Of a stretch of 40,015 nt of DNA, positions 26,269 through 40,015 are shown in pieces (position 1 is the stretch's first letter; each line of letters begins with the position of its first letter). The translations under genes and the position numbers were made by a program. This DNA comes from a phage. The DNA lies in the sequence record PV889368.1. The stretch is one strand, 5' to 3'. The notes under the pieces were generated by a model, which saw nothing but the letters and a program-made list of their open reading frames with translations, searched no databases and was not told where the DNA came from.

Positions 26269-26709
26269 TCACTTGGGAGCATAGCACTTACCTTTATGTA
26301 GGTCGAACAGCTCCTGATAGAAGGCTGCTTTGTTCAGGTCCTTCTCCATAGTGGCCAGCTCGGACTTCTTACCAGCTCGGAGTCGATACTTCAGGACGTT
26401 ACCCATGCAGAAGCCACGGAACTCAATGACAGTCATGGACCGGGCGATAATCTCAATGGATTCCACACCATCAAAGACCTGATAGTGGGACGGCTTGCGT
26501 ACACCATCGTCACGGACTTCTGGTTTATCCTGAACACGATTGGTGATAATTAGTGCGGCTTTACCGTGTCTAACTGGCTGCATAATCCCCGGCCATTCCA
26601 CCTCTACTGAGTCATCTGATGTACATACGCTAAGAACCTTACCATCACAGCGGCCACTAAATTGACCATGAGTCCCAACGTAGCGCACAACATCCCCGAC
26701 CTTAATCAT
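26269..26709 (-). CDS. gp1.7-like nucleotide kinase
   Basis: C-terminal KPSHYQVFDGVESIEIIARSMTVIEFRGFCMGNVLKYRLRAGKKSELA..EKDLNKAAFYQELFDLHKGKCYA matches T7 gp1.7; N-terminal part differs. Confidence 0.85.
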   Translation of the reverse strand: MIKVGDVVRYVGTHGQFSGRCDGKVLSVCTSDDSVEVEWPGIMQPVRHGKAALIITNRVQDKPEVRDDGVRKPSHYQVFDGVESIEIIARSMTVIEFRGFCMGNVLKYRLRAGKKSELATMEKDLNKAAFYQELFDLHKGKCYAPK

Positions 26710-29048: not shown

Positions 29049-31730
29049 TTAAGCGAATGCAAAGTCTGAAGACAAGATGTCTTCGATATTCAGTTCACCT
29101 TTCTTCGGAAGCTCAGGCAACTTGTCGCGCTGACTCTCGTGAAGCTGGTATTCAAACTGCTCGTAGAAGTCAAGCAGCACATCGTTGTCGCGGTATGTCT
29201 CTACCATCGTCTCACGGACACCACGGAACAGATACTCAGCGTCAGCCGGGATGGTCCCGAAGCTATCGTGAATCACTGCGAATGACATCACACCATACTT
29301 GCGGTGCGTGTGGACTACAGTCTTGCGGAGGTGGCTACCATCTTGTGAGTGGACGAAGTTCGGGCTAATGCCTGACTCCTGCTTGTGTTTGTCCAGCTCT
29401 TTCTTTGTGCCTTTGTTGACTGTAGGCTGAAGGTTGAATGACCCTAAGAACATCAGGTTCAGACGAGTGGTATCCTTCTTGCGGTATTCCTGCCATACCG
29501 GGAAACCATCAGGTGTGACCCAGTGTACCGGAAGGCAAGGCTTCAGGATTTCACCAGTCTTCTTGTCCTTCACTTCAGCAGCCAGCAGCTTGGCAGCGCC
29601 TTGAAGCCACTTCATCGCGTCAACCGCAGCAACTACGGTCACACTCACAGCCTCCCAAATCATCTTGGCCATGAAGCGAGACGCTTGGCTTGGCTCAGTG
29701 AACATAGCGCCAGACCCTGAGTCAATCGCTGGCATTACGATGTCCTCGTAAACTTGGTCTGCGAAGCCGTACTCTTTCGACCCGTAGGCCAGAGTCATGA
29801 CCGAACGCTTAGTGACCTTGCGTGACATACCGTAAGTCAGCCACTGACGGGCCAGCTCTCGTGTCCCCAGCTTGAGACGCTCGGTAATCTCACCTGTTTT
29901 CTTGTCCTCGTGAGTCACCACCTCGTTGTCCGTACCGTTAACCAGCAGGACTTTAAGTTCCTCCTCAATGCGGTCGGACACAATGCGGTAGATGTCTTGG
30001 ACCTTACCGGATGGCGTCAGGTTTACTGCATGTCCACCGATGTGGTCACGAAGCATCGCGCTGAAGTGCTGAATCCCAGAGCATGACCCATCGAACGCTA
30101 TCGGAAGCGAGCATGAGTAAGACAATCCGTGGTGCATTACGCCAGCATACTCGAAGCAGAACGCAAGGAAGCAGAACGGAGAGTCTAACTTGCCCCACCA
30201 CTCAATGCTATCCATCGGTGCTTTGGCAGCAGCCATGATGTTGTCGTGGTTGTCTTCCACCCATTTGATGCGCTCCTCGAAGGTGACTTTATCGACACCA
30301 GCACAGTTTGCACCGTGGACCTTCAGCCATTTAAAACCATCAGCGCCAATAGGCTTGCCGACTGCCAGAGTCAGGAGACCCTTCTGCATGTCGTTGCCCT
30401 GAGGGTTGAACATCGGTACAGCGTAGACGCGGCCGCGCCAATCCATGTTATATGGGAACCATATGGCCTTGAACTGAGAGAACTTGTTTGCTTGGTTAAC
30501 GATAAAGCTCAGTGATAATCTGCGTGACTGTCTGGCCTTCTCGCGGCGATAGATACCAGCAGCAGCCTTCTTCCATGCCTTGAGTTCTTCTTCAGTCTCA
30601 CCCGCATAGTCCTCAGGCTTCAGTGGTTCCATCTGAGGGATGTCATCAATAGGCGTGTTGTTCAGCTTCTCGACCATGTTCACAACGTCCAGGACCTTCT
30701 TGTTCACTTTCCAAGGTGTACTCTGAATGATGTTCACAGCGTCGTAGACTTCAGGCATGTACACGTCTTCGTAACGTGCTACCGCAGACTTAGACCCTAA
30801 GCGAATCAGTGGTAATGGTCTGCGACCTTTGGCCCAATACCCACCACCTACGACACCCGTCCACGGCTTAGGTGGAACGACGCAAGGCTGATAGACTGGT
30901 GCGATACCCGCAAGGCTGAATCCACGTTGTGCCATCTTCTTTACCCAGAAGTCTGACAGGTGGACCATCTCAACGTCAGCCGCCGCATTGCCAGCACCAT
31001 AACGCTTAAGCTCAACCAGTTGTGTAGACTGAATGACAATCTCAAGCATCTTGATGCCAACGTGTACCGCCTCGGTAGGACTCCAAGTTCCCCAAGCATC
31101 TTCCAGTTGGCCCTGCTCCAGCATGGATGTCTCAACCGCTTGCATGTAGGCTTTCTTGTAGGATGCCCCGGCTCGCTTGTTCAGGTTCTCAGCTATCGCC
31201 TTCTTGAAGTGCTCCTGCTCCTTGTCACGGATGCGACCGAAGCGGATTTCATCTTCAAGAGTGCGACCTATCGCGGAGGCCATAGGTGTAATCGGTATCC
31301 CTTCAGGCTTGACCAGCTTAGAGAGAATGACCTTCAGTATGATAACCGCAGCAGACTCGCAGGAGATGCGCAGAGAGCGGTCCTTGACAGCCTTCCCTTC
31401 AGTGCTCAACATGGTGAACGCTACGCTCGGACGAGAGATTGACAGCTTCCCGTCTGTGCCTTCATGCCACTCCTTGACGGCTTGCGCAATCTTAGGGACC
31501 AGAGTCTGCATCAAAGGCTTGGCGACCTGATTGTCTGCCAGTTCCCCGCGCTCCGTCTGGCGCTCAAGGTTCTTGATGAAACGTCGCTCGCCTTCAGTGT
31601 ATGCCTCATGCTCAAGCTGAAGCTGTTTGACTGCAAGGTCTTGCCCGTAGTGGTCAGCCAGCAGGTTAAACGGCTCAATGGCGTTCGACACATCAGAGAA
31701 GTCGTGTTTGTCAATAGAGATGACGCTCAT
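29049..31730 (-). CDS. Single-subunit DNA-dependent RNA polymerase (gp1)
   Basis: Collinear with T7 RNAP across 893 aa, e.g. FSDV...PFN.LADHYG, RFGRIRD, PCVVPPKPWTG, AIWFPYNMDWRGRVYA, DGSCSGIQHFSAMLRD, VTKRSVMTLAYGSKE, HDSFGT, C-terminal FAFA. Confidence 0.97.
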   Translation of the reverse strand: MSVISIDKHDFSDVSNAIEPFNLLADHYGQDLAVKQLQLEHEAYTEGERRFIKNLERQTERGELADNQVAKPLMQTLVPKIAQAVKEWHEGTDGKLSISRPSVAFTMLSTEGKAVKDRSLRISCESAAVIILKVILSKLVKPEGIPITPMASAIGRTLEDEIRFGRIRDKEQEHFKKAIAENLNKRAGASYKKAYMQAVETSMLEQGQLEDAWGTWSPTEAVHVGIKMLEIVIQSTQLVELKRYGAGNAAADVEMVHLSDFWVKKMAQRGFSLAGIAPVYQPCVVPPKPWTGVVGGGYWAKGRRPLPLIRLGSKSAVARYEDVYMPEVYDAVNIIQSTPWKVNKKVLDVVNMVEKLNNTPIDDIPQMEPLKPEDYAGETEEELKAWKKAAAGIYRREKARQSRRLSLSFIVNQANKFSQFKAIWFPYNMDWRGRVYAVPMFNPQGNDMQKGLLTLAVGKPIGADGFKWLKVHGANCAGVDKVTFEERIKWVEDNHDNIMAAAKAPMDSIEWWGKLDSPFCFLAFCFEYAGVMHHGLSYSCSLPIAFDGSCSGIQHFSAMLRDHIGGHAVNLTPSGKVQDIYRIVSDRIEEELKVLLVNGTDNEVVTHEDKKTGEITERLKLGTRELARQWLTYGMSRKVTKRSVMTLAYGSKEYGFADQVYEDIVMPAIDSGSGAMFTEPSQASRFMAKMIWEAVSVTVVAAVDAMKWLQGAAKLLAAEVKDKKTGEILKPCLPVHWVTPDGFPVWQEYRKKDTTRLNLMFLGSFNLQPTVNKGTKKELDKHKQESGISPNFVHSQDGSHLRKTVVHTHRKYGVMSFAVIHDSFGTIPADAEYLFRGVRETMVETYRDNDVLLDFYEQFEYQLHESQRDKLPELPKKGELNIEDILSSDFAFA

Positions 31731-31799
31731 ACTTAAAGTCCTTGTTATTAGTCTTTCACTTAGAGTCTCTTTGGTCTTTCACTTGGAGTCTTAGACCTT

Positions 31800-31822
31800 G
31801 AGTCCTATAGTGATAGTTAAGT
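31800..31822 (-). promoter_or_regulatory. Phage RNAP promoter immediately upstream of the RNAP gene
   Basis: Minus strand GACTTAACTATCACTATAGGACTCAAGG, about 75 nt upstream of the gene 1 ATG; the leader carries a duplicated AAGTGAAAGAC. Confidence 0.7.
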
Positions 31823-31827
31823 CAGAA

Positions 31828-32220
31828 TTACTTGCATATCAGAGGGTTAGCGTGAAGATGACTGAAGTCACCGTGAGTCGTGTGCTTGATGGTCGACCGT
31901 TGGTCTATCGCCTTCCAGCCTGAGACCAGAAGTTTACCGTCGTCTGTGATTGGTCGTCCACCATACGCCAGATACATCAGCTCGGACTTATGGCCCTCGG
32001 CCCGGAGTCGTGCCTGAAGTACACGGTCTCGCTCCTGCTGTTGACGCTTAGTGTGTGATGAGTGGCGGTGTACATAAGTGCCCTTTCTCCCGGTCTTCTC
32101 CCAGTAGTTGCGGCCACGCGAGTCAGTTCCAACATACTTCCACTCTACGCCGTTCTTATCAGTGAATTTGCGAAACGCTAGGGTTGAGTCCATTGCGTGT
32201 ACCAGATTTAACATATTCAT
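31828..32220 (-). CDS. Hypothetical early protein (130 aa) where T7 has the gp0.7 kinase; no kinase motifs seen
   Basis: ATG with GGGAG RBS; TAATG overlap with the upstream ORF. Confidence 0.6.
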   Translation of the reverse strand: MNMLNLVHAMDSTLAFRKFTDKNGVEWKYVGTDSRGRNYWEKTGRKGTYVHRHSSHTKRQQQERDRVLQARLRAEGHKSELMYLAYGGRPITDDGKLLVSGWKAIDQRSTIKHTTHGDFSHLHANPLICK

Positions 32221-32417
32221 TACAGTTTACTCCCAAGTGTTGCTATATCCCAGACGTTCGCTAAGTTACGCGTGAATCGTCCGTTAGGTTGACGCACAGT
32301 CCAGCGACCCAGACGTGCATAGTTGAATTTATAGACTTTACATGCCTTGTTGATGTCTCTCACCAGCACGTAGGCGATAAGTCCATAGCCTATGGCTATC
32401 AATAGTGCAGATATCAT
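32220..32417 (-). CDS. Small early protein with an N-terminal transmembrane helix (65 aa)
   Basis: ATG start; hydrophobic N-terminus MISALLIAIGYGLIAYVLV. Confidence 0.5.
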   Translation of the reverse strand: MISALLIAIGYGLIAYVLVRDINKACKVYKFNYARLGRWTVRQPNGRFTRNLANVWDIATLGSKL

Positions 32418-32420
32418 AGC

Positions 32421-32588
32421 TTACCCCGCCAGTCCAATCCATATCAGTAGACCGCGCACGACCCCTACCGGAGAGAATATTATATCCACTGCCAGCCAGC
32501 CAAGACGCAGTGCATTCCCATCAGCTATGACCGCAGTCAGCCAAGACAGAATGATGGTGACGTAAAGTGCGATGACTGTAAGTTTCAT
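32421..32588 (-). CDS. Small early membrane protein (55 aa, two predicted TM helices)
   Basis: Not in the ORF track; ATG 32588 with AGGAG RBS; MKLTVIALYVTIILSWLTAVIADG...VGVVRGLLIWIGLAG. Confidence 0.45.
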   Translation of the reverse strand: MKLTVIALYVTIILSWLTAVIADGNALRLGWLAVDIIFSPVGVVRGLLIWIGLAG

Positions 32589-32594
32589 AGTTAA

Positions 32595-32660
32595 CTCCTA
32601 TCAATTTAAGTGATAATCTTTGAGGCCACATATCAGTTAGATGACCTCTCGTCTATCACT
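32595..32660 (-). promoter_or_regulatory. Conserved early intergenic element, copy D
   Basis: Shares ...gaggccac...atcagt...gacct...tctatcactc... with copies at 33045, 33785 and 34375; lies in the 5' leader of the downstream ORF. Confidence 0.4.
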
Positions 32661-32661
32661 C

Positions 32662-33039
32662 CTACACTTCCACTGCGATGGTTGTCATCTTGGTCACAGT
32701 AAGACCACCAGCAAGCTCAACAGCATAGCGTATCGCCTCGTCTTTGGACCTGAAATCTTTTCCAGCAAGGTGGTAAATATCGCCGTTTATTACTTTGGTC
32801 GGCTTGCGGCTGACTGCTATGGCGTTGCTGAGGGAAAGCTCGCCTTTCGACCACTGAGAGTGCCAGCGAAGCACGCTCTTACTGGATACGTTGAAGTCAC
32901 TTGCCACCATCTCAAGCATGGAGTCAAGTCGAGAGGTGCCATATTGAGGCTGGCGCACCAAGTCGTATGCCTGTGCTACTCGGATTTTAAACTCTACAGA
33001 ATACTGATTGCGGGTCTTAGGTTGTGCTGGTGTAAACAT
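32662..33039 (-). CDS. Early protein with a transposase-type helix-turn-helix-like N-terminus (125 aa)
   Basis: ATG with AAGGA RBS; YSVEFKIRVAQAY....YGTS......VSSKSVLRWHSQW resembles IS3-OrfA-type HTH (from memory, unverified). Confidence 0.55.
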   Translation of the reverse strand: MFTPAQPKTRNQYSVEFKIRVAQAYDLVRQPQYGTSRLDSMLEMVASDFNVSSKSVLRWHSQWSKGELSLSNAIAVSRKPTKVINGDIYHLAGKDFRSKDEAIRYAVELAGGLTVTKMTTIAVEV

Positions 33040-33044
33040 TTGGC

Positions 33045-33125
33045 ATTCCTTCTGGTTAATTTAAATTAAGTGACAATCAGTCAGGCCACCAGCATTGATG
33101 ACCTGTAGTCTATCACTCAGCGTGC
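33045..33125 (-). promoter_or_regulatory. Conserved early intergenic element, copy C
   Basis: ttaatttaaattaagtgacaatcagtcaggccacc...gacctgtagtctatcactcag. Confidence 0.4.
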
Positions 33126-33262
33126 AAGCTGCCGAGTATACTCTTGCGGCCCTTATAGACCGCTTTCAGGAGACGCATAGCCACATCGTGGTTTAACTGC
33201 CCGGTCTTGACCATAAGCCGGGCGTTGTTGACGTGATGCTGGCAGAGACCATAAGTTACCAT
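33116..33262 (-). CDS. gp0.4-like small protein (48 aa; T7 gp0.4 is an FtsZ inhibitor)
   Basis: Not in the ORF track; ATG overlaps the ocr stop (TAATG); MVTYGLCQHH...AMRLLKAVYKG..SILGSLHG resembles T7 gp0.4 ..VQYGLTAQ...AMAQLKELYEN..AIALESAE. Confidence 0.55.
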
Positions 33263-33771
33263 TACTCGCAGTCCTCTTCAGCAGCCGCAGGGTCGAACAC
33301 TACGTTATCGTTGACGTCTTCGACCTTCAGGTGGCGACCAATCGCATAGTGGTCTTTGGCACATGCGGTAGCGACCTCAAGAGACACAGCTTGCTCAATT
33401 ATTGCTCCTGTTTTAGCGTCAACTACCCAATACTCAGCCTCTTCGTCGCTCTCTTCAGCCTCAAACCATACCACATCCGAGCTATTAGACACATCGTTAT
33501 ACAGTGCCTCATAGATACGAGCTTGCAGTATACGCGTCACATCCTTGGTCTCAGGCATCAGCCCAGAGTCTTCAAACTCATGGTCAATACCATCAGCAGC
33601 CATCACCGTGAAAATCTCGTGGTAATAGTGCGGTACCTGACCGTCTACGACCTCATGCAGCGCATCATGGTAGTCGTCACCTTCAGCTATTTCGTCGTAC
33701 TGAATGCGCTCGTTAAATGCTTCAACAGTTGCAGCCAGCAGGTCATAGTATGCGCTAGCGTTACGTTCCAT
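33262..33771 (-). CDS. ocr: Ocr-like DNA mimic (gp0.3 family), 169 aa with an extended C-terminus
   Basis: [53 protein letters not shown] closely matches T7 Ocr [53 protein letters not shown]; about 50 aa longer than T7 Ocr (117 aa). Confidence 0.9.
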   Translation of the reverse strand: [169 protein letters not shown]

Positions 33772-35852: not shown

Positions 35853-36395
35853 TTACTTGTGGTTTCTATGGGTCCTATCACGCTTAGGGGACCGTCGGTT
35901 TACTGCGTATTCCTTGTGCTTCTCAGTGCGTAGAGCATCAAGCCACACCTCTAGTTCCTCTATTGAATCTGAGGTCTTCGTGAAGCACTTACCTTGTAGG
36001 CGCAACTGAGCGCGATACTTTCCGGTAGGCTTGAAAAAGCTGATACCTTTGGGTAGACCATTAGTCTCGCCACCTCCTGAGTTCCATCTGTTCTCTAATG
36101 CTGTTACTAACCTGTAGTTATCTGGCCTGTCGTCAAGTCTATCACCATTGATATGGTCAACCATCATGCCAGAAGGTATACGACCCACTACTAGGCTGTA
36201 GATGATTCTGGCACGCCTATAGCGGCTACCAAGAACCTTCACGATTGCGTACCCAGACGGATGGACTGAATGTCCCATGACCTCGCCTGGCTTCTTGTTA
36301 GAGCCTTTATAGGGCTTCTTGCACACCAACTCACCATCTACATAAGCATAGTGATTAAAGAGGGCCACCCTGTCGATGGCCTTCTGTTTACTCAT
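35853..36395 (-). CDS. HNH homing endonuclease with an AP2-like DNA-binding domain (180 aa)
   Basis: HNH motif region VDHINGDRLDDRPDNYRLVTALENRWN; GISFFKPTGKYRAQLRLQGK resembles an AP2 domain; ATG with GGAGGA RBS 14 nt after the terminase stop. Confidence 0.8.
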   Translation of the reverse strand: MSKQKAIDRVALFNHYAYVDGELVCKKPYKGSNKKPGEVMGHSVHPSGYAIVKVLGSRYRRARIIYSLVVGRIPSGMMVDHINGDRLDDRPDNYRLVTALENRWNSGGGETNGLPKGISFFKPTGKYRAQLRLQGKCFTKTSDSIEELEVWLDALRTEKHKEYAVNRRSPKRDRTHRNHK

Positions 36396-39319: not shown

Positions 39320-40015
39320 TTAAACCACCATATACCTAAAACTAGCCCCCGACCCAGCAGGAGAACCAGAAGCTGTAGCTATAGTACAAGAGCCGTTATT
39401 AACTGCTGATACGTAGGCATTTGCCAATGCCCCATTTGCATTAGCGGGTACAAGGATTATATGTGACCAAACATTTATGTTTGCGTCCACTATATTTGCC
39501 GTGGAGTTTCCGGCTAAGCCATTGAAGCCGCGCATATGGAGTGGTTTTTCGGGGTCCAATTGGACGTTTCTAAGTATGAACTTTCCTGTCCCTACGGCGT
39601 TTAGCCTGGTCTTGTTGTTGGCGTTGCTTGTTAAGTCGCCATTCGTTAGCGTTAACGTAGAGTTAAAAGCTGTTACGTGGGCGGAGCCGGGGTCTTTAAC
39701 TATGAAGTTGTCAACACTATTGTTATCAGCGCCGTCTGATTGGTTTATGCCTACACCCGCTGGATTTATTACGGTTGCCGATAGTACACGGTTGTTATTG
39801 CTGTTGGCTGCGAACTGGAAACCGTTAGCAGCGGAGTTAATGCTAATGATACAATCAATCACATTGTACTCGGAAGGTGAACTAGGACGGCCTAATCCGA
39901 CGCTTCCAAAATACTTGTTTCTAATAACCTTGATAGTACCAGCATGACTATAACGACAGTCAAAGCCACCCCCGCTTGCACCAGAGTTCTCTACGTTAGC
40001 ATACAGTAGGTTATT
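39320..40015 (-). CDS. Tail fiber/tailspike gp17, 3' portion (C-terminal Asn/Gly/Ser/Ala/Val-rich beta-helix-like domain); 39889..40015 duplicates 1..127
   Basis: Same frame as the ORF leaving the window at position 1; composition and repeated N.V.N / N-G-S patterns suggest a right-handed beta-helix tailspike domain (inference); stop at 39322..39320. Confidence 0.8.
   Translation of the reverse strand, partial: NNLLYANVENSGASGGGFDCRYSHAGTIKVIRNKYFGSVGLGRPSSPSEYNVIDCIISINSAANGFQFAANSNNNRVLSATVINPAGVGINQSDGADNNSVDNFIVKDPGSAHVTAFNSTLTLTNGDLTSNANNKTRLNAVGTGKFILRNVQLDPEKPLHMRGFNGLAGNSTANIVDANINVWSHIILVPANANGALANAYVSAVNNGSCTIATASGSPAGSGASFRYMVV
39889..40015. repeat. 127-bp exact duplicate of positions 1..127 (circular-assembly overlap, not a biological terminal repeat)
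   Basis: The text at 39889..40015 is identical to 1..127 and lies inside the gp17 coding sequence. Confidence 0.9.

What the first reader, a model, noticed from the sequence alone, without database searches (positions are those of the whole stretch)
31828..32588. gp0.7 kinase absent; replaced by a 130-aa protein and two small membrane proteins
Where T7 encodes genes 0.5-0.7 (including the ~359-aa protein kinase/host shutoff protein), this genome has a 55-aa two-helix membrane peptide, a 65-aa protein with an N-terminal TM helix and a 130-aa basic protein with no kinase motifs. Small early membrane proteins in phages are often cell-division or envelope modulators, or defence or superinfection-exclusion factors.
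Basis: partly seen in the sequence, partly recalled or inferred. Interest (0 to 1): 0.45.

Follow-up and report, generated by a model that had tools for sequence, protein, structure and literature searches.

The report
Ordinary K1F-type early genes, no kinase
The three small genes are the standard, still uncharacterised early genes (gp0.36, gp0.6, gp0.38) of K1F-like T7 relatives; the T7 protein kinase really is missing, but these genes do not replace it, because relatives carry the kinase and all three genes together.

Summary
The window is a permuted genome of a K1F-like phage (Kayfunavirus), with all genes on the minus strand. The three ORFs exist as described. They have ribosome-binding sites, evolve under purifying selection (dN/dS 0.06-0.48) and have the stated properties: 55 aa with two hydrophobic segments, 65 aa with one N-terminal segment, and 130 aa with pI 10.

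No gp0.7-type kinase is found anywhere in the window with T7, T3, K11 or Kayfunavirus kinases as queries. The only kinase is a gp1.7-like nucleotide kinase.

The "replacement" reading fails. The ORFs are K1F gp0.36, the T3/K11-type gp0.6 (not T7 gp0.6A) and gp0.38. In Kayfunavirus LET1 the order is kinase, gp0.36, gp0.6, gp0.38, RNA polymerase. GW1, ST37 and CR8 carry the kinase with gp0.6 and/or gp0.38 homologues. The kinase is an optional cassette, present in roughly one in five gp0.38-bearing phages.

gp0.38 is a narrow orphan family: 14 clusters at 50% identity among 1.84 billion proteins. It has a confident three-helix core and an invariant but poorly modelled C-terminal tail. No sequence or fold link to the kinase, its shutoff domain or gp0.4 was found.

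Function remains unknown. The most likely role is host take-over factors made from early transcripts. This is an ordinary, already catalogued arrangement of low interest.

The parts
32421..32588 (-). gp0.36 (55 aa): small hairpin membrane peptide with two hydrophobic segments (1-24, 32-54). Invariant WLTAV..D and GW.AVD...SPVG.VRG motifs.
   Evidence: ORF. PHROG 7319, E 6e-24. 85% identical to K1F gp0.36. Hydropathy. Family alignment. dN/dS 0.30-0.48. 51 phage records and 20 clusters in 5.8 billion proteins.
32595..32598 (-). GGAG ribosome-binding site, 6 nt upstream of the gp0.36 ATG
   Evidence: Read directly from the sequence.
32220..32417 (-). gp0.6, T3/K11 type (65 aa): N-terminal membrane anchor (1-22) plus a basic C-terminal domain (pI 10.4) carrying the conserved G-R-(W/F)-T-V-R-x-x-N-G-R-F motif. 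The start lies 3 nt after the gp0.36 stop.
   Evidence: ORF. PHROG 2385, E 2e-30. tblastn: T3 gene 0.6 E 6e-8, K11 gp0.6A E 9e-11, K1F 0.6 E 2e-35, and no hit for T7 gp0.6A. 650 phage records. Alignment. dN/dS 0.19-0.41.
31828..32220 (-). gp0.38 (130 aa, pI 10.0), last early gene before gene 1. Its ATG overlaps the gp0.6 stop (TAATG), so the two are translationally coupled.
   Evidence: ORF. PHROG 7066, E 1.5e-44 over residues 47-130. 223 phage records. 139 clusters at 90% identity. 14 representatives at 50% identity in 1.84 billion proteins. The overlap is conserved in L010, L012 and L013.
32077..32220 (-). gp0.38 variable N-terminal module (aa 1-48): a helix plus a three-stranded beta unit (FTDKNGVEWKYVGTDSRGRNYWEKTG). 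It is absent from the 83-108-aa forms of the family.
   Evidence: The alignment shows length classes of 83/86/108/130/139 aa. AF2 gives H3-15, E18-20, E26-32, E38-42 with pLDDT about 77-79. At the DNA level this segment matches only PE3-1 and JSS1. dN/dS 0.36.
31831..32076 (-). gp0.38 conserved core (aa 49-130): a three-helix unit followed by the invariant C-terminal tail HTT.GDFSHLHANPLICK, which is modelled with low confidence.
   Evidence: AF2 on the core with a diversified alignment: pLDDT 78.7, blocks 11-60 above 90, tail 43-64. Invariant T114, G117, D118, F119, L122. dN/dS 0.06-0.21.
31803..31820 (-). Copy of the phage RNA-polymerase promoter consensus, between gp0.38 and gene 1
   Evidence: Ten copies in the window, all on the minus strand, against 0.03 expected. 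Conserved at the same place in six Kayfunavirus loci.
32662..33039 (-). Neighbouring 125-aa basic ORF with weak helix-turn-helix similarity. In GW1 its homologue lies immediately upstream of the kinase gene, so it marks the upstream edge of the empty kinase slot.
   Evidence: ORF. No PHROG. HTH_Tnp_1 E 0.07. The GW1 homologue is 60% identical (E 2e-42) and hits BrkDBD at E 7e-5.

Best explanation
The interval holds the three conserved class I (early) accessory genes of K1F-like phages: gp0.36, the T3/K11-type gp0.6 and gp0.38. The gp0.7 kinase is missing because it is an optional cassette in this genus, not because these genes took its place. In relatives that have it, the cassette sits between the homologue of the 125-aa ORF and gp0.36/gp0.6.

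Shown: the identity of the genes, their synteny, coding constraint, predicted membrane segments and the fold of the gp0.38 core.

Inferred mechanism: the genes lie in the early region upstream of gene 1. By analogy with T7 class I genes they would be transcribed by host RNA polymerase as one tightly packed, translationally coupled message within the first minutes of infection. gp0.36 would insert as a helical hairpin into the inner membrane. gp0.6 would anchor by its N-terminal helix with its basic 45-residue domain in the cytoplasm (positive-inside rule). gp0.38, made in step with gp0.6, would be a small soluble adaptor. Its invariant but poorly modelled C-terminal tail (T-x-GDF-x-HL) would dock onto a host protein, and the swappable N-terminal module would add a second, strain-specific contact.

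The most likely role is host take-over or counter-defence by binding and inhibiting host proteins, as for the other small T7 class I proteins. This role is independent of whether a kinase is present.
For: Kayfunavirus identity: 90-95% DNA identity to K1F-like phages. Family membership: PHROGs 7319, 2385 and 7066, and K1F, PE3-1, EcoDS1 and CR8 records that already name these genes gp0.36, gp0.6 and gp0.38. Kinase absent from the window. Kinase co-occurs with all three genes in LET1. Phage B1 lists the same order of gene sizes (PMC12785254, Table 1). Kinase co-occurs with gp0.6 and gp0.38 in GW1 and ST37, and with gp0.38 in CR8. About 45 records carry the Kayfunavirus kinase against about 223 with gp0.38. 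The type species K1F lacks the kinase. gp0.6 is homologous to T3 0.6 and K11 0.6A, which lie beside a kinase. Purifying selection. The gp0.6/gp0.38 start-stop overlap is kept in divergent metagenomic relatives. The gp0.38 core folds confidently while the most conserved tail does not, a pattern typical of a docking motif.
Against: No experiment or homology ties any of the three proteins to a target. The membrane topology and the docking-tail idea are inferences from sequence and an AF2 model. Low pLDDT in the tail could also reflect a shallow alignment (Neff about 1.7-2.6). Early transcription is inferred from gene position by analogy with T7. The simple sigma-70 scan did not exceed its shuffled control (8 sites against 5.8 +/- 2.1). 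Expression of the proteins has not been shown for this phage.
Confidence: 0.75

Rival explanations
1. One reading: the three proteins functionally substitute for the lost kinase/shutoff protein, so a kinase-less phage compensates with them.
For: They occupy the map interval that holds genes 0.5-0.7 in T7. gp0.38 sits exactly where the 3' end of gene 0.7 lies, just before gene 1.
Against: All three families co-exist with a kinase in LET1. Phage B1 lists the same order of gene sizes (PMC12785254, Table 1). gp0.6 and gp0.38 co-exist with it in GW1 and ST37. gp0.6 homologues accompany full-length kinases in T3 and K11. There is no sequence or profile similarity to the kinase.
Confidence: 0.05
2. 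[quoted passage not shown]
For: The distribution is complementary in the genomes examined. T7, T3 and K11 have a kinase with an SO domain and no gp0.38. Kayfunavirus kinases are 244 aa and stop before the SO domain, and gp0.38 lies just upstream of gene 1. gp0.38 is basic (pI 10.0) with an Arg/Gln-rich first helix. The SO domain is reported to bind DNA and to be toxic (PMC13645617, PMC12345140).
Against: hhalign of the gp0.38 family against a T7/T3/K11 SO alignment gives probability 0.25%. Smith-Waterman against T7 gp0.7 is no better than shuffles (p = 0.18). Foldseek of the confident core model against BFVD viral structures returns only gp0.38 family members. The net charge is far lower than that of the SO basic segment. 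Most gp0.38-bearing phages have no kinase to direct.
Confidence: 0.15
3. The two membrane proteins (gp0.36, gp0.6) are envelope or cell-division modulators, or superinfection-exclusion factors, acting at the inner membrane. gp0.38 is unrelated to them.
For: Predicted membrane segments. gp0.36 occupies the same slot as a 41-aa T7 gp0.5-like Gly/Ala-rich hydrophobic peptide in ST37. T7 class I neighbours gp0.4 and gp0.6 are reported to target FtsZ and MreB (my own knowledge: Kiro 2013, Molshanski-Mor 2014). A gp0.4-family gene lies two genes upstream, beyond the 125-aa ORF.
Against: No similarity to T7 gp0.5 or gp0.6A or to any PADLOC, Pfam or NCBIfam model. T7 gp0.5 is itself uncharacterised (PMC12798971). 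The conserved gp0.6/gp0.38 translational coupling argues that those two work together.
Confidence: 0.25
4. The ORFs are non-functional leftovers or annotation noise in a fast-evolving early region.
For: The families are very narrow (20 and 139 clusters) and have no known domains.
Against: dN/dS is well below 1, down to 0.06 for the gp0.38 core. Reading frames are intact in hundreds of genomes. Ribosome-binding sites and conserved coupling are present. gp0.6 is conserved across genera at 40% identity.
Confidence: 0.03

Closest known systems
Early region of coliphage K1F (type species of Kayfunavirus) and of PE3-1, SH3 and EcoDS1: genes 0.3, 0.35, 0.36, 0.6, 0.38, 1
   Same: Same genes in the same order, with 74-95% protein identity. 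No kinase. A phage promoter lies just before gene 1.
   Different: The window adds a 125-aa HTH-like ORF between the gp0.4-like gene and gp0.36 (shared with pO2 and GW1). It carries the long 130-aa form of gp0.38 (PE3-1/SH3 type), not K1F's shorter form. No single record in the phage collection covers 80% or more of 31700-33100.
T3 gene 0.6 protein / K11 gp0.6A (PHROG 2385)
   Same: The 65-aa protein aligns over its full length (40-43% identity). It has the same N-terminal hydrophobic helix, invariant Tyr and Asp, the (W/F)TVRxxNGRF motif and pI of about 10.5.
   Different: In T3 and K11 the gene precedes a full-length kinase. Here it precedes gp0.38. The function is unknown in every case.
T7 gp0.7 (T7K) protein kinase with shutoff domain
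   Same: Only the map position: gp0.38 ends where gene 0.7 ends, just before gene 1.
   Different: No kinase or shutoff homologue in the window. The Kayfunavirus kinases present in some relatives are 244 aa and lack the shutoff domain.
T7 gp0.5 (uncharacterised class I hydrophobic peptide)
   Same: gp0.36 is a similarly small, doubly hydrophobic early peptide in an equivalent slot.
   Different: No detectable sequence similarity. gp0.36 has conserved charged residues (D35, R45) inside its second hydrophobic segment.
T7 gp0.6A (reported MreB inhibitor)
   Same: The name only ('0.6' in K1F and PE3-1 annotation) and the small, basic character.
   Different: No sequence similarity. T7 gp0.6A has no hydrophobic segment.

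Membership tests
T7 gp0.7-type Ser/Thr protein kinase (T7K) | Kinase-domain homology (Gly-rich loop, GFKK.DSGAAY, DxH.xN and ITDP motifs) | tested here: not met
   tblastn of the T7, T3, K11 and GW1 kinases against all six frames of the window gives a best E of 0.12, with no hit in the early region. hhalign of the gp0.38 family against T7 gp0.7 gives probability 0.25%.
T7 gp0.7-type Ser/Thr protein kinase (T7K) | C-terminal shutoff (SO) domain | tested here: not met
   hhalign against a T7/T3/K11 SO alignment gives probability 0.25%. Smith-Waterman with shuffles gives p = 0.18. Foldseek against BFVD returns only gp0.38 relatives.
T3 gene 0.6 / K11 gp0.6A family (PHROG 2385) | Full-length sequence similarity | tested here: met
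   PHROG 2385 at E 2e-30 covering 1-64 of 65 residues. T3 0.6 at E 6e-8 and K11 0.6A at E 9e-11.
T3 gene 0.6 / K11 gp0.6A family (PHROG 2385) | N-terminal hydrophobic helix followed by a basic domain with the (W/F)TVRxxNGRF motif | tested here: met
   Hydropathy gives segments 1-22 (window) and 1-21 (T3), with pI 10.4 and 10.5. Motif columns are 90% or more conserved.
T7 gp0.6A (MreB inhibitor) | Sequence similarity to T7 gp0.6A | tested here: not met
   tblastn of T7 gp0.6A against the window: no hit in the early region, best E 0.45 elsewhere.
T7 gp0.6A (MreB inhibitor) | Binding to and inhibition of MreB | not testable with these tools
   Needs a two-hybrid or pull-down assay and a cell-shape assay.
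K1F gp0.36 family (PHROG 7319) | Full-length similarity and the two-segment hydrophobic architecture | tested here: met
   PHROG 7319 at E 6e-24 covering 1-54 of 54 positions. 85% identity to K1F gp0.36. 26 invariant columns.
T7 gp0.5 | Sequence similarity to T7 gp0.5 | tested here: not met
   tblastn best E 0.84, outside the early region. The only resemblance is the architecture of two hydrophobic segments.
gp0.38 family (PHROG 7066; EcoDS1, CR8 and PE3-1 'gp0.38') | Conserved 82-residue C-terminal core with ERDxVL..R..AEG, DGKLL and HTTxGDFxHL motifs | tested here: met
   PHROG 7066 at E 1.5e-44. Alignments. BFVD hit to EcoDS1 Gp0.38 at E 1e-9.
gp0.38 family (PHROG 7066; EcoDS1, CR8 and PE3-1 'gp0.38') | Position as the last gene before gene 1, overlapping the stop of gp0.6 | tested here: met
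   Window. PE3-1, GW1, ST37 and LET1. Metagenomic loci L010, L012 and L013.
Known anti-phage defence or exclusion proteins (PADLOC) | Match to any PADLOC-DB model | tested here: not met
   No families at E up to 0.1 for any of the seven small early proteins.

The most novel reading that the evidence does not exclude
gp0.38 is a new kind of small phage host-takeover factor. It would be a three-helix adaptor that is translationally coupled to the membrane-anchored gp0.6. Its invariant C-terminal tail (TxGDFxHL) would capture a specific host protein, possibly supplying in trans the host-shutoff function that T7, T3 and K11 carry as the SO domain fused to their kinase. The exchangeable N-terminal modules (none, 22 aa, or a 48-aa beta unit) would tune host or defence specificity.
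Probability: 0.15. Interest if true: 0.5.

Novelty: already known. Interest (0 to 1): 0.15.

Why it matters
It matters little as a discovery. The kinase-less early region with gp0.36, gp0.6 and gp0.38 is the arrangement of the type species K1F and of most sequenced relatives, and public records already list these genes as hypothetical proteins.

Two modest points are useful. First, recent work shows that the T7 kinase is a broad anti-defence weapon (PMC13645617, PMC12345140). It is therefore worth knowing that, by record counts, roughly four in five gp0.38-bearing phages lack the Kayfunavirus-type kinase, and that those with a kinase carry a form without the shutoff domain. This genus is a natural comparison set for asking what the kinase buys a phage.

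Second, gp0.38 and the T3-type gp0.6 are conserved, constrained and completely uncharacterised early proteins of phages now used in therapy studies. They are reasonable targets for a host-takeover screen.

Tried and rejected
1. gp0.38 as a kinase remnant. hhalign aligned its C-terminal tail (TIKHTTHGDFSHLHANPLIC) with the Gly-rich-loop region of T7 gp0.7 ([20 protein letters not shown]), but at E 0.24 and probability 0.25%. Smith-Waterman against the T7 and GW1 kinases was no better than shuffles. I treated this as chance.

2. gp0.38 as a homologue of the shutoff domain. Rejected on hhalign and on Foldseek against BFVD.

3. gp0.38 core related to the gp0.4 (FtsZ inhibitor) family, suggested by a shared 'LAYGG / AMAYGAS' patch. 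hhalign gave probability 0.2%. Rejected.

5. Profile searches of the PDB sequences with the gp0.38 and gp0.6 alignments gave nothing at E up to 1.

6. Pfam, NCBIfam and PADLOC gave no significant hit for the three proteins.

7. An RNase III-type hairpin between gp0.38 and gene 1. The fold is no better than shuffles (z = -0.64).

8. 'JSS1_004', the kinase of the literature. The Escherichia phage JSS1 record that matches this window (KX689784) has no kinase, so it is a different phage from the Salmonella phage JSS1 of the mBio paper.

9. The K1F genome paper (Scholl and Merril 2005) could not be retrieved. K1F's lack of a kinase was therefore checked directly on its sequence.

Full report
What the window is. 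All long ORFs lie on the minus strand. The sequence is 90-95% identical to K1F-like phages of the genus Kayfunavirus, subfamily Studiervirinae. Gene 1 (T7-type RNA polymerase, 893 aa) is at 29049..31730. Upstream of it on the coding strand lie, in order:
- a 73-aa ORF and a 92-aa ORF;
- a 169-aa Ocr (Pfam ocr, E 1e-31);
- a 49-aa gp0.4-family protein;
- a 125-aa ORF;
- the three ORFs of the finding.

The observation. Kyte-Doolittle windows give two hydrophobic segments in the 55-aa protein (1-24, 32-54), one in the 65-aa protein (1-22) and none in the 130-aa protein, which has pI 10.0. GGAG and GGGAG lie 6-9 nt upstream of the first and third starts. The second start follows the first stop by 3 nt, and the third start overlaps the second stop (TAATG). 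Nei-Gojobori comparisons with PE3-1, K1F, pO2, GW1, ST37 and JSS1 give these dN/dS values:
- gp0.36: 0.30-0.48;
- gp0.6: 0.19-0.41;
- gp0.38 core: 0.06-0.21;
- gp0.38 N-terminal module: 0.36.

So these are real, constrained genes.

Kinase absence. T7 gp0.7, T3 gp0.7, the K11 kinase and the Kayfunavirus kinase of GW1 were each run by tblastn against all six frames of the window. Nothing scored better than E = 0.12 and nothing fell in the early region. T7 RNAP (E = 0) and Ocr (E 5e-30) served as positive controls. The 146-aa ORF at 26269..26709 matches 'nucleotide kinase' PHROGs. It is the gp1.7 counterpart, which T7 also has, and not a protein kinase. T7 gp0.7 itself has no model in the Pfam copy used, so direct comparison was the appropriate test.

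What the three genes are. Each matches one PHROG of unknown function over nearly its whole length:
- the 55-aa protein matches PHROG 7319 (E 6e-24);
- the 65-aa protein matches PHROG 2385 (E 2e-30);
- the 130-aa protein matches PHROG 7066 (E 1.5e-44, residues 47-130).

Public records already name them. K1F and PE3-1 list gp0.36, 0.6/gp0.6 and gp0.38. EcoDS1 and CR8 list Gp0.38.

The 65-aa protein is a full-length homologue of T3 gene 0.6 (E 6e-8, 40% identity) and K11 gp0.6A (E 9e-11, 43%). It shares the N-terminal helix, an invariant Tyr and Asp, and a G-R-(W/F)-T-V-R-x-x-N-G-R-F motif. It is unrelated to T7 gp0.6A, which has no hydrophobic segment. The family occurs in 650 phage records across Kayfunavirus, Przondovirus and relatives that infect Yersinia, Dickeya and Pectobacterium.

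gp0.36 is much rarer: 51 phage records and 20 clusters among 5.8 billion proteins, all on T7-like contigs of about 40 kb. It has no similarity to T7 gp0.5, although it has the same overall look. In ST37 the same slot holds a 41-aa Gly/Ala-rich peptide of the T7 gp0.5 style.

gp0.38 in detail. The family has 139 clusters at 90% identity. An exhaustive profile search of 1.84 billion representatives found only 14 at E up to 0.001. At least two of these (a 1594-aa and a 433-aa protein, each with seven matched stretches; the 433-aa sequence is visibly repetitive) look spurious. The conserved part is residues 49-130. The N-terminus comes in several forms: none (83-86 aa), a 22-residue leader (108 aa), or that leader plus a 26-residue insertion (130-139 aa, the window's form).

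AlphaFold2 on the full length gave pLDDT 62. It showed a helix plus a three-stranded beta unit in the N-terminal module. On the core alone, with a more diverse alignment, pLDDT rose to 78.7 (pTM 0.61). Three helices are modelled above 90, and the most conserved stretch, HTT.GDFSHLHANPLICK, at 43-64.

Searches with these models gave nothing informative:
- Foldseek against PDB found nothing;
- Foldseek against the BFVD viral structures found only gp0.38 relatives;
- Pfam, NCBIfam, PADLOC and PDB-sequence profile searches were empty.

Why 'replacement' is wrong. A tblastn of T7 gp0.7 against the phage collection showed weak, kinase-core-only hits in a few Kayfunavirus genomes. In GW1 the order is SAMase, 67 aa, 41 aa, 115 aa (homologue of the window's 125-aa ORF, 60% identity), a 244-aa kinase, gp0.6, gp0.38, RNAP. 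In ST37 the order is a SAMase-kinase fusion, a 41-aa peptide, gp0.6, gp0.38, RNAP. In LET1 the order is kinase, a 53-aa gp0.36 homologue (57% identity), gp0.6, gp0.38, RNAP. The published table for phage B1 lists the same order of gene sizes (PMC12785254). T3 and K11 place their gp0.6 homologue beside a full-length kinase.

Every one of the three genes therefore co-exists with a kinase somewhere. About 45 records carry the Kayfunavirus-type kinase, against about 223 that carry gp0.38. The kinase is thus an optional cassette. Its absence, as in the type species K1F, is the majority state. In the window the empty slot lies between the 125-aa ORF and gp0.36.

At the DNA level the early region is a mosaic. 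The Ocr, gp0.4-like, gp0.36 and gp0.6 stretches match K1F and PE3-1. The 125-aa gene matches pO2. The long gp0.38 N-terminus matches PE3-1 and JSS1. No single record covers 80% of 31700-33100.

Mechanism. Shown: gene identity, coding constraint, predicted membrane segments, conserved tight coupling of gp0.6 and gp0.38 (also in the divergent metagenomic loci L010, L012 and L013), and a confident helical core with a conserved but unmodelled tail.

Inferred: early transcription by host RNA polymerase, by analogy with T7 class I genes. The simple sigma-70 scan does not exceed its shuffled control. Also inferred: inner-membrane insertion of gp0.36 as a hairpin, gp0.6 anchored with its basic domain in the cytoplasm, and gp0.38 acting as a small adaptor whose tail docks on a host protein. 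I consider a kinase-independent host take-over or counter-defence role the most likely. The target cannot be named from these data.

The most interesting alternative is that gp0.38 supplies in trans what the shutoff domain supplies in T7, T3 and K11. Kayfunavirus kinases end before that domain. gp0.38 sits where the domain's coding sequence would be, and it is absent from the three SO-bearing genomes examined. However, profile, pairwise and fold comparisons were all negative, so this remains a positional argument only.

Context from the literature. The T7 kinase is a hyper-promiscuous enzyme that disarms several defence systems. Its C-terminal domain binds DNA and is toxic (PMC13645617). A related kinase, JSS1_004, needs both domains against Dnd (PMC12345140). 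T7 gp0.5 is still uncharacterised (PMC12798971). No paper in the searchable library mentions gp0.36, gp0.38 or gp0.6A. The K1F genome paper could not be retrieved.

Verdict. The arrangement is the ordinary one of a well-sampled genus and is already present in public annotation, so novelty is 'already known' and interest is low. The remaining value is that gp0.38 and the T3-type gp0.6 are conserved early proteins with no known function.

Noticed in passing
window 31803..31820 (-): A perfect copy of the phage RNA-polymerase promoter consensus (TTAACTATCACTATAGGA; 10 copies in the window, all on the coding strand) lies 72 nt upstream of the gene 1 start. It is conserved at the same place in K1F, PE3-1, pO2, ST37 and JSS1. 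GW1 has a different specificity variant there (TAAACCCTCACTATAGGA). T7, T3 and K11 have none there. It would give the phage polymerase positive feedback on its own gene. The PE3-1 record labels it a host promoter.
   Followed up: partly
window 32662..33039 (-): A 125-aa basic ORF with no PHROG match and only weak helix-turn-helix similarity (HTH_Tnp_1 E 0.07; the GW1 homologue hits BrkDBD at E 7e-5). Homologues were seen only in pO2, GW1 and, judged by size and position only, one metagenomic contig (L013). In GW1 the homologue abuts the kinase gene.
   Followed up: partly
window 33113..33262 (-): The 49-aa ORF after Ocr belongs to the T7 gp0.4 family (T7 gp0.4 E 0.007, K11 gp0.4 E 0.009; equivalents in related contigs carry PF26807 Phage_T7_GP04). 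It is therefore a probable FtsZ-inhibitor homologue. T3 gp0.65 shares an 'AMAYGAS' patch with K11 gp0.4 in the alignment, but no score was computed for it.
   Followed up: partly
window 33262..33771 (-): Ocr is 169 aa. The Pfam ocr domain covers residues 7-96 and is followed by an extra C-terminal region of about 70 residues that T7 Ocr (117 aa) and PE3-1 Ocr (110 aa) lack. K1F and pO2 have the long form.
   Followed up: no
L006:2153-3082 (Salmonella phage ST37; also ST34 and ST35): A 309-aa protein annotated as SAM hydrolase is a fusion. An N-terminal part of about 115 residues was not analysed here. It is joined to the shutoff-less Kayfunavirus kinase, which is 90% identical to the GW1 kinase from its residue 51 onward.
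   Followed up: partly
window 35853..36395 (-) and 39320..39862 (-): An HNH homing-type endonuclease (PHROG 99, E 2e-40) sits directly after the large terminase gene. A 180-aa ORF near the window end has no PHROG match.
   Followed up: no
window 26269..26709 (-): A gp1.7-like nucleotide kinase (PHROGs 4943 and 2585). It is the only kinase-annotated gene in the genome and is not a protein kinase.
   Followed up: yes
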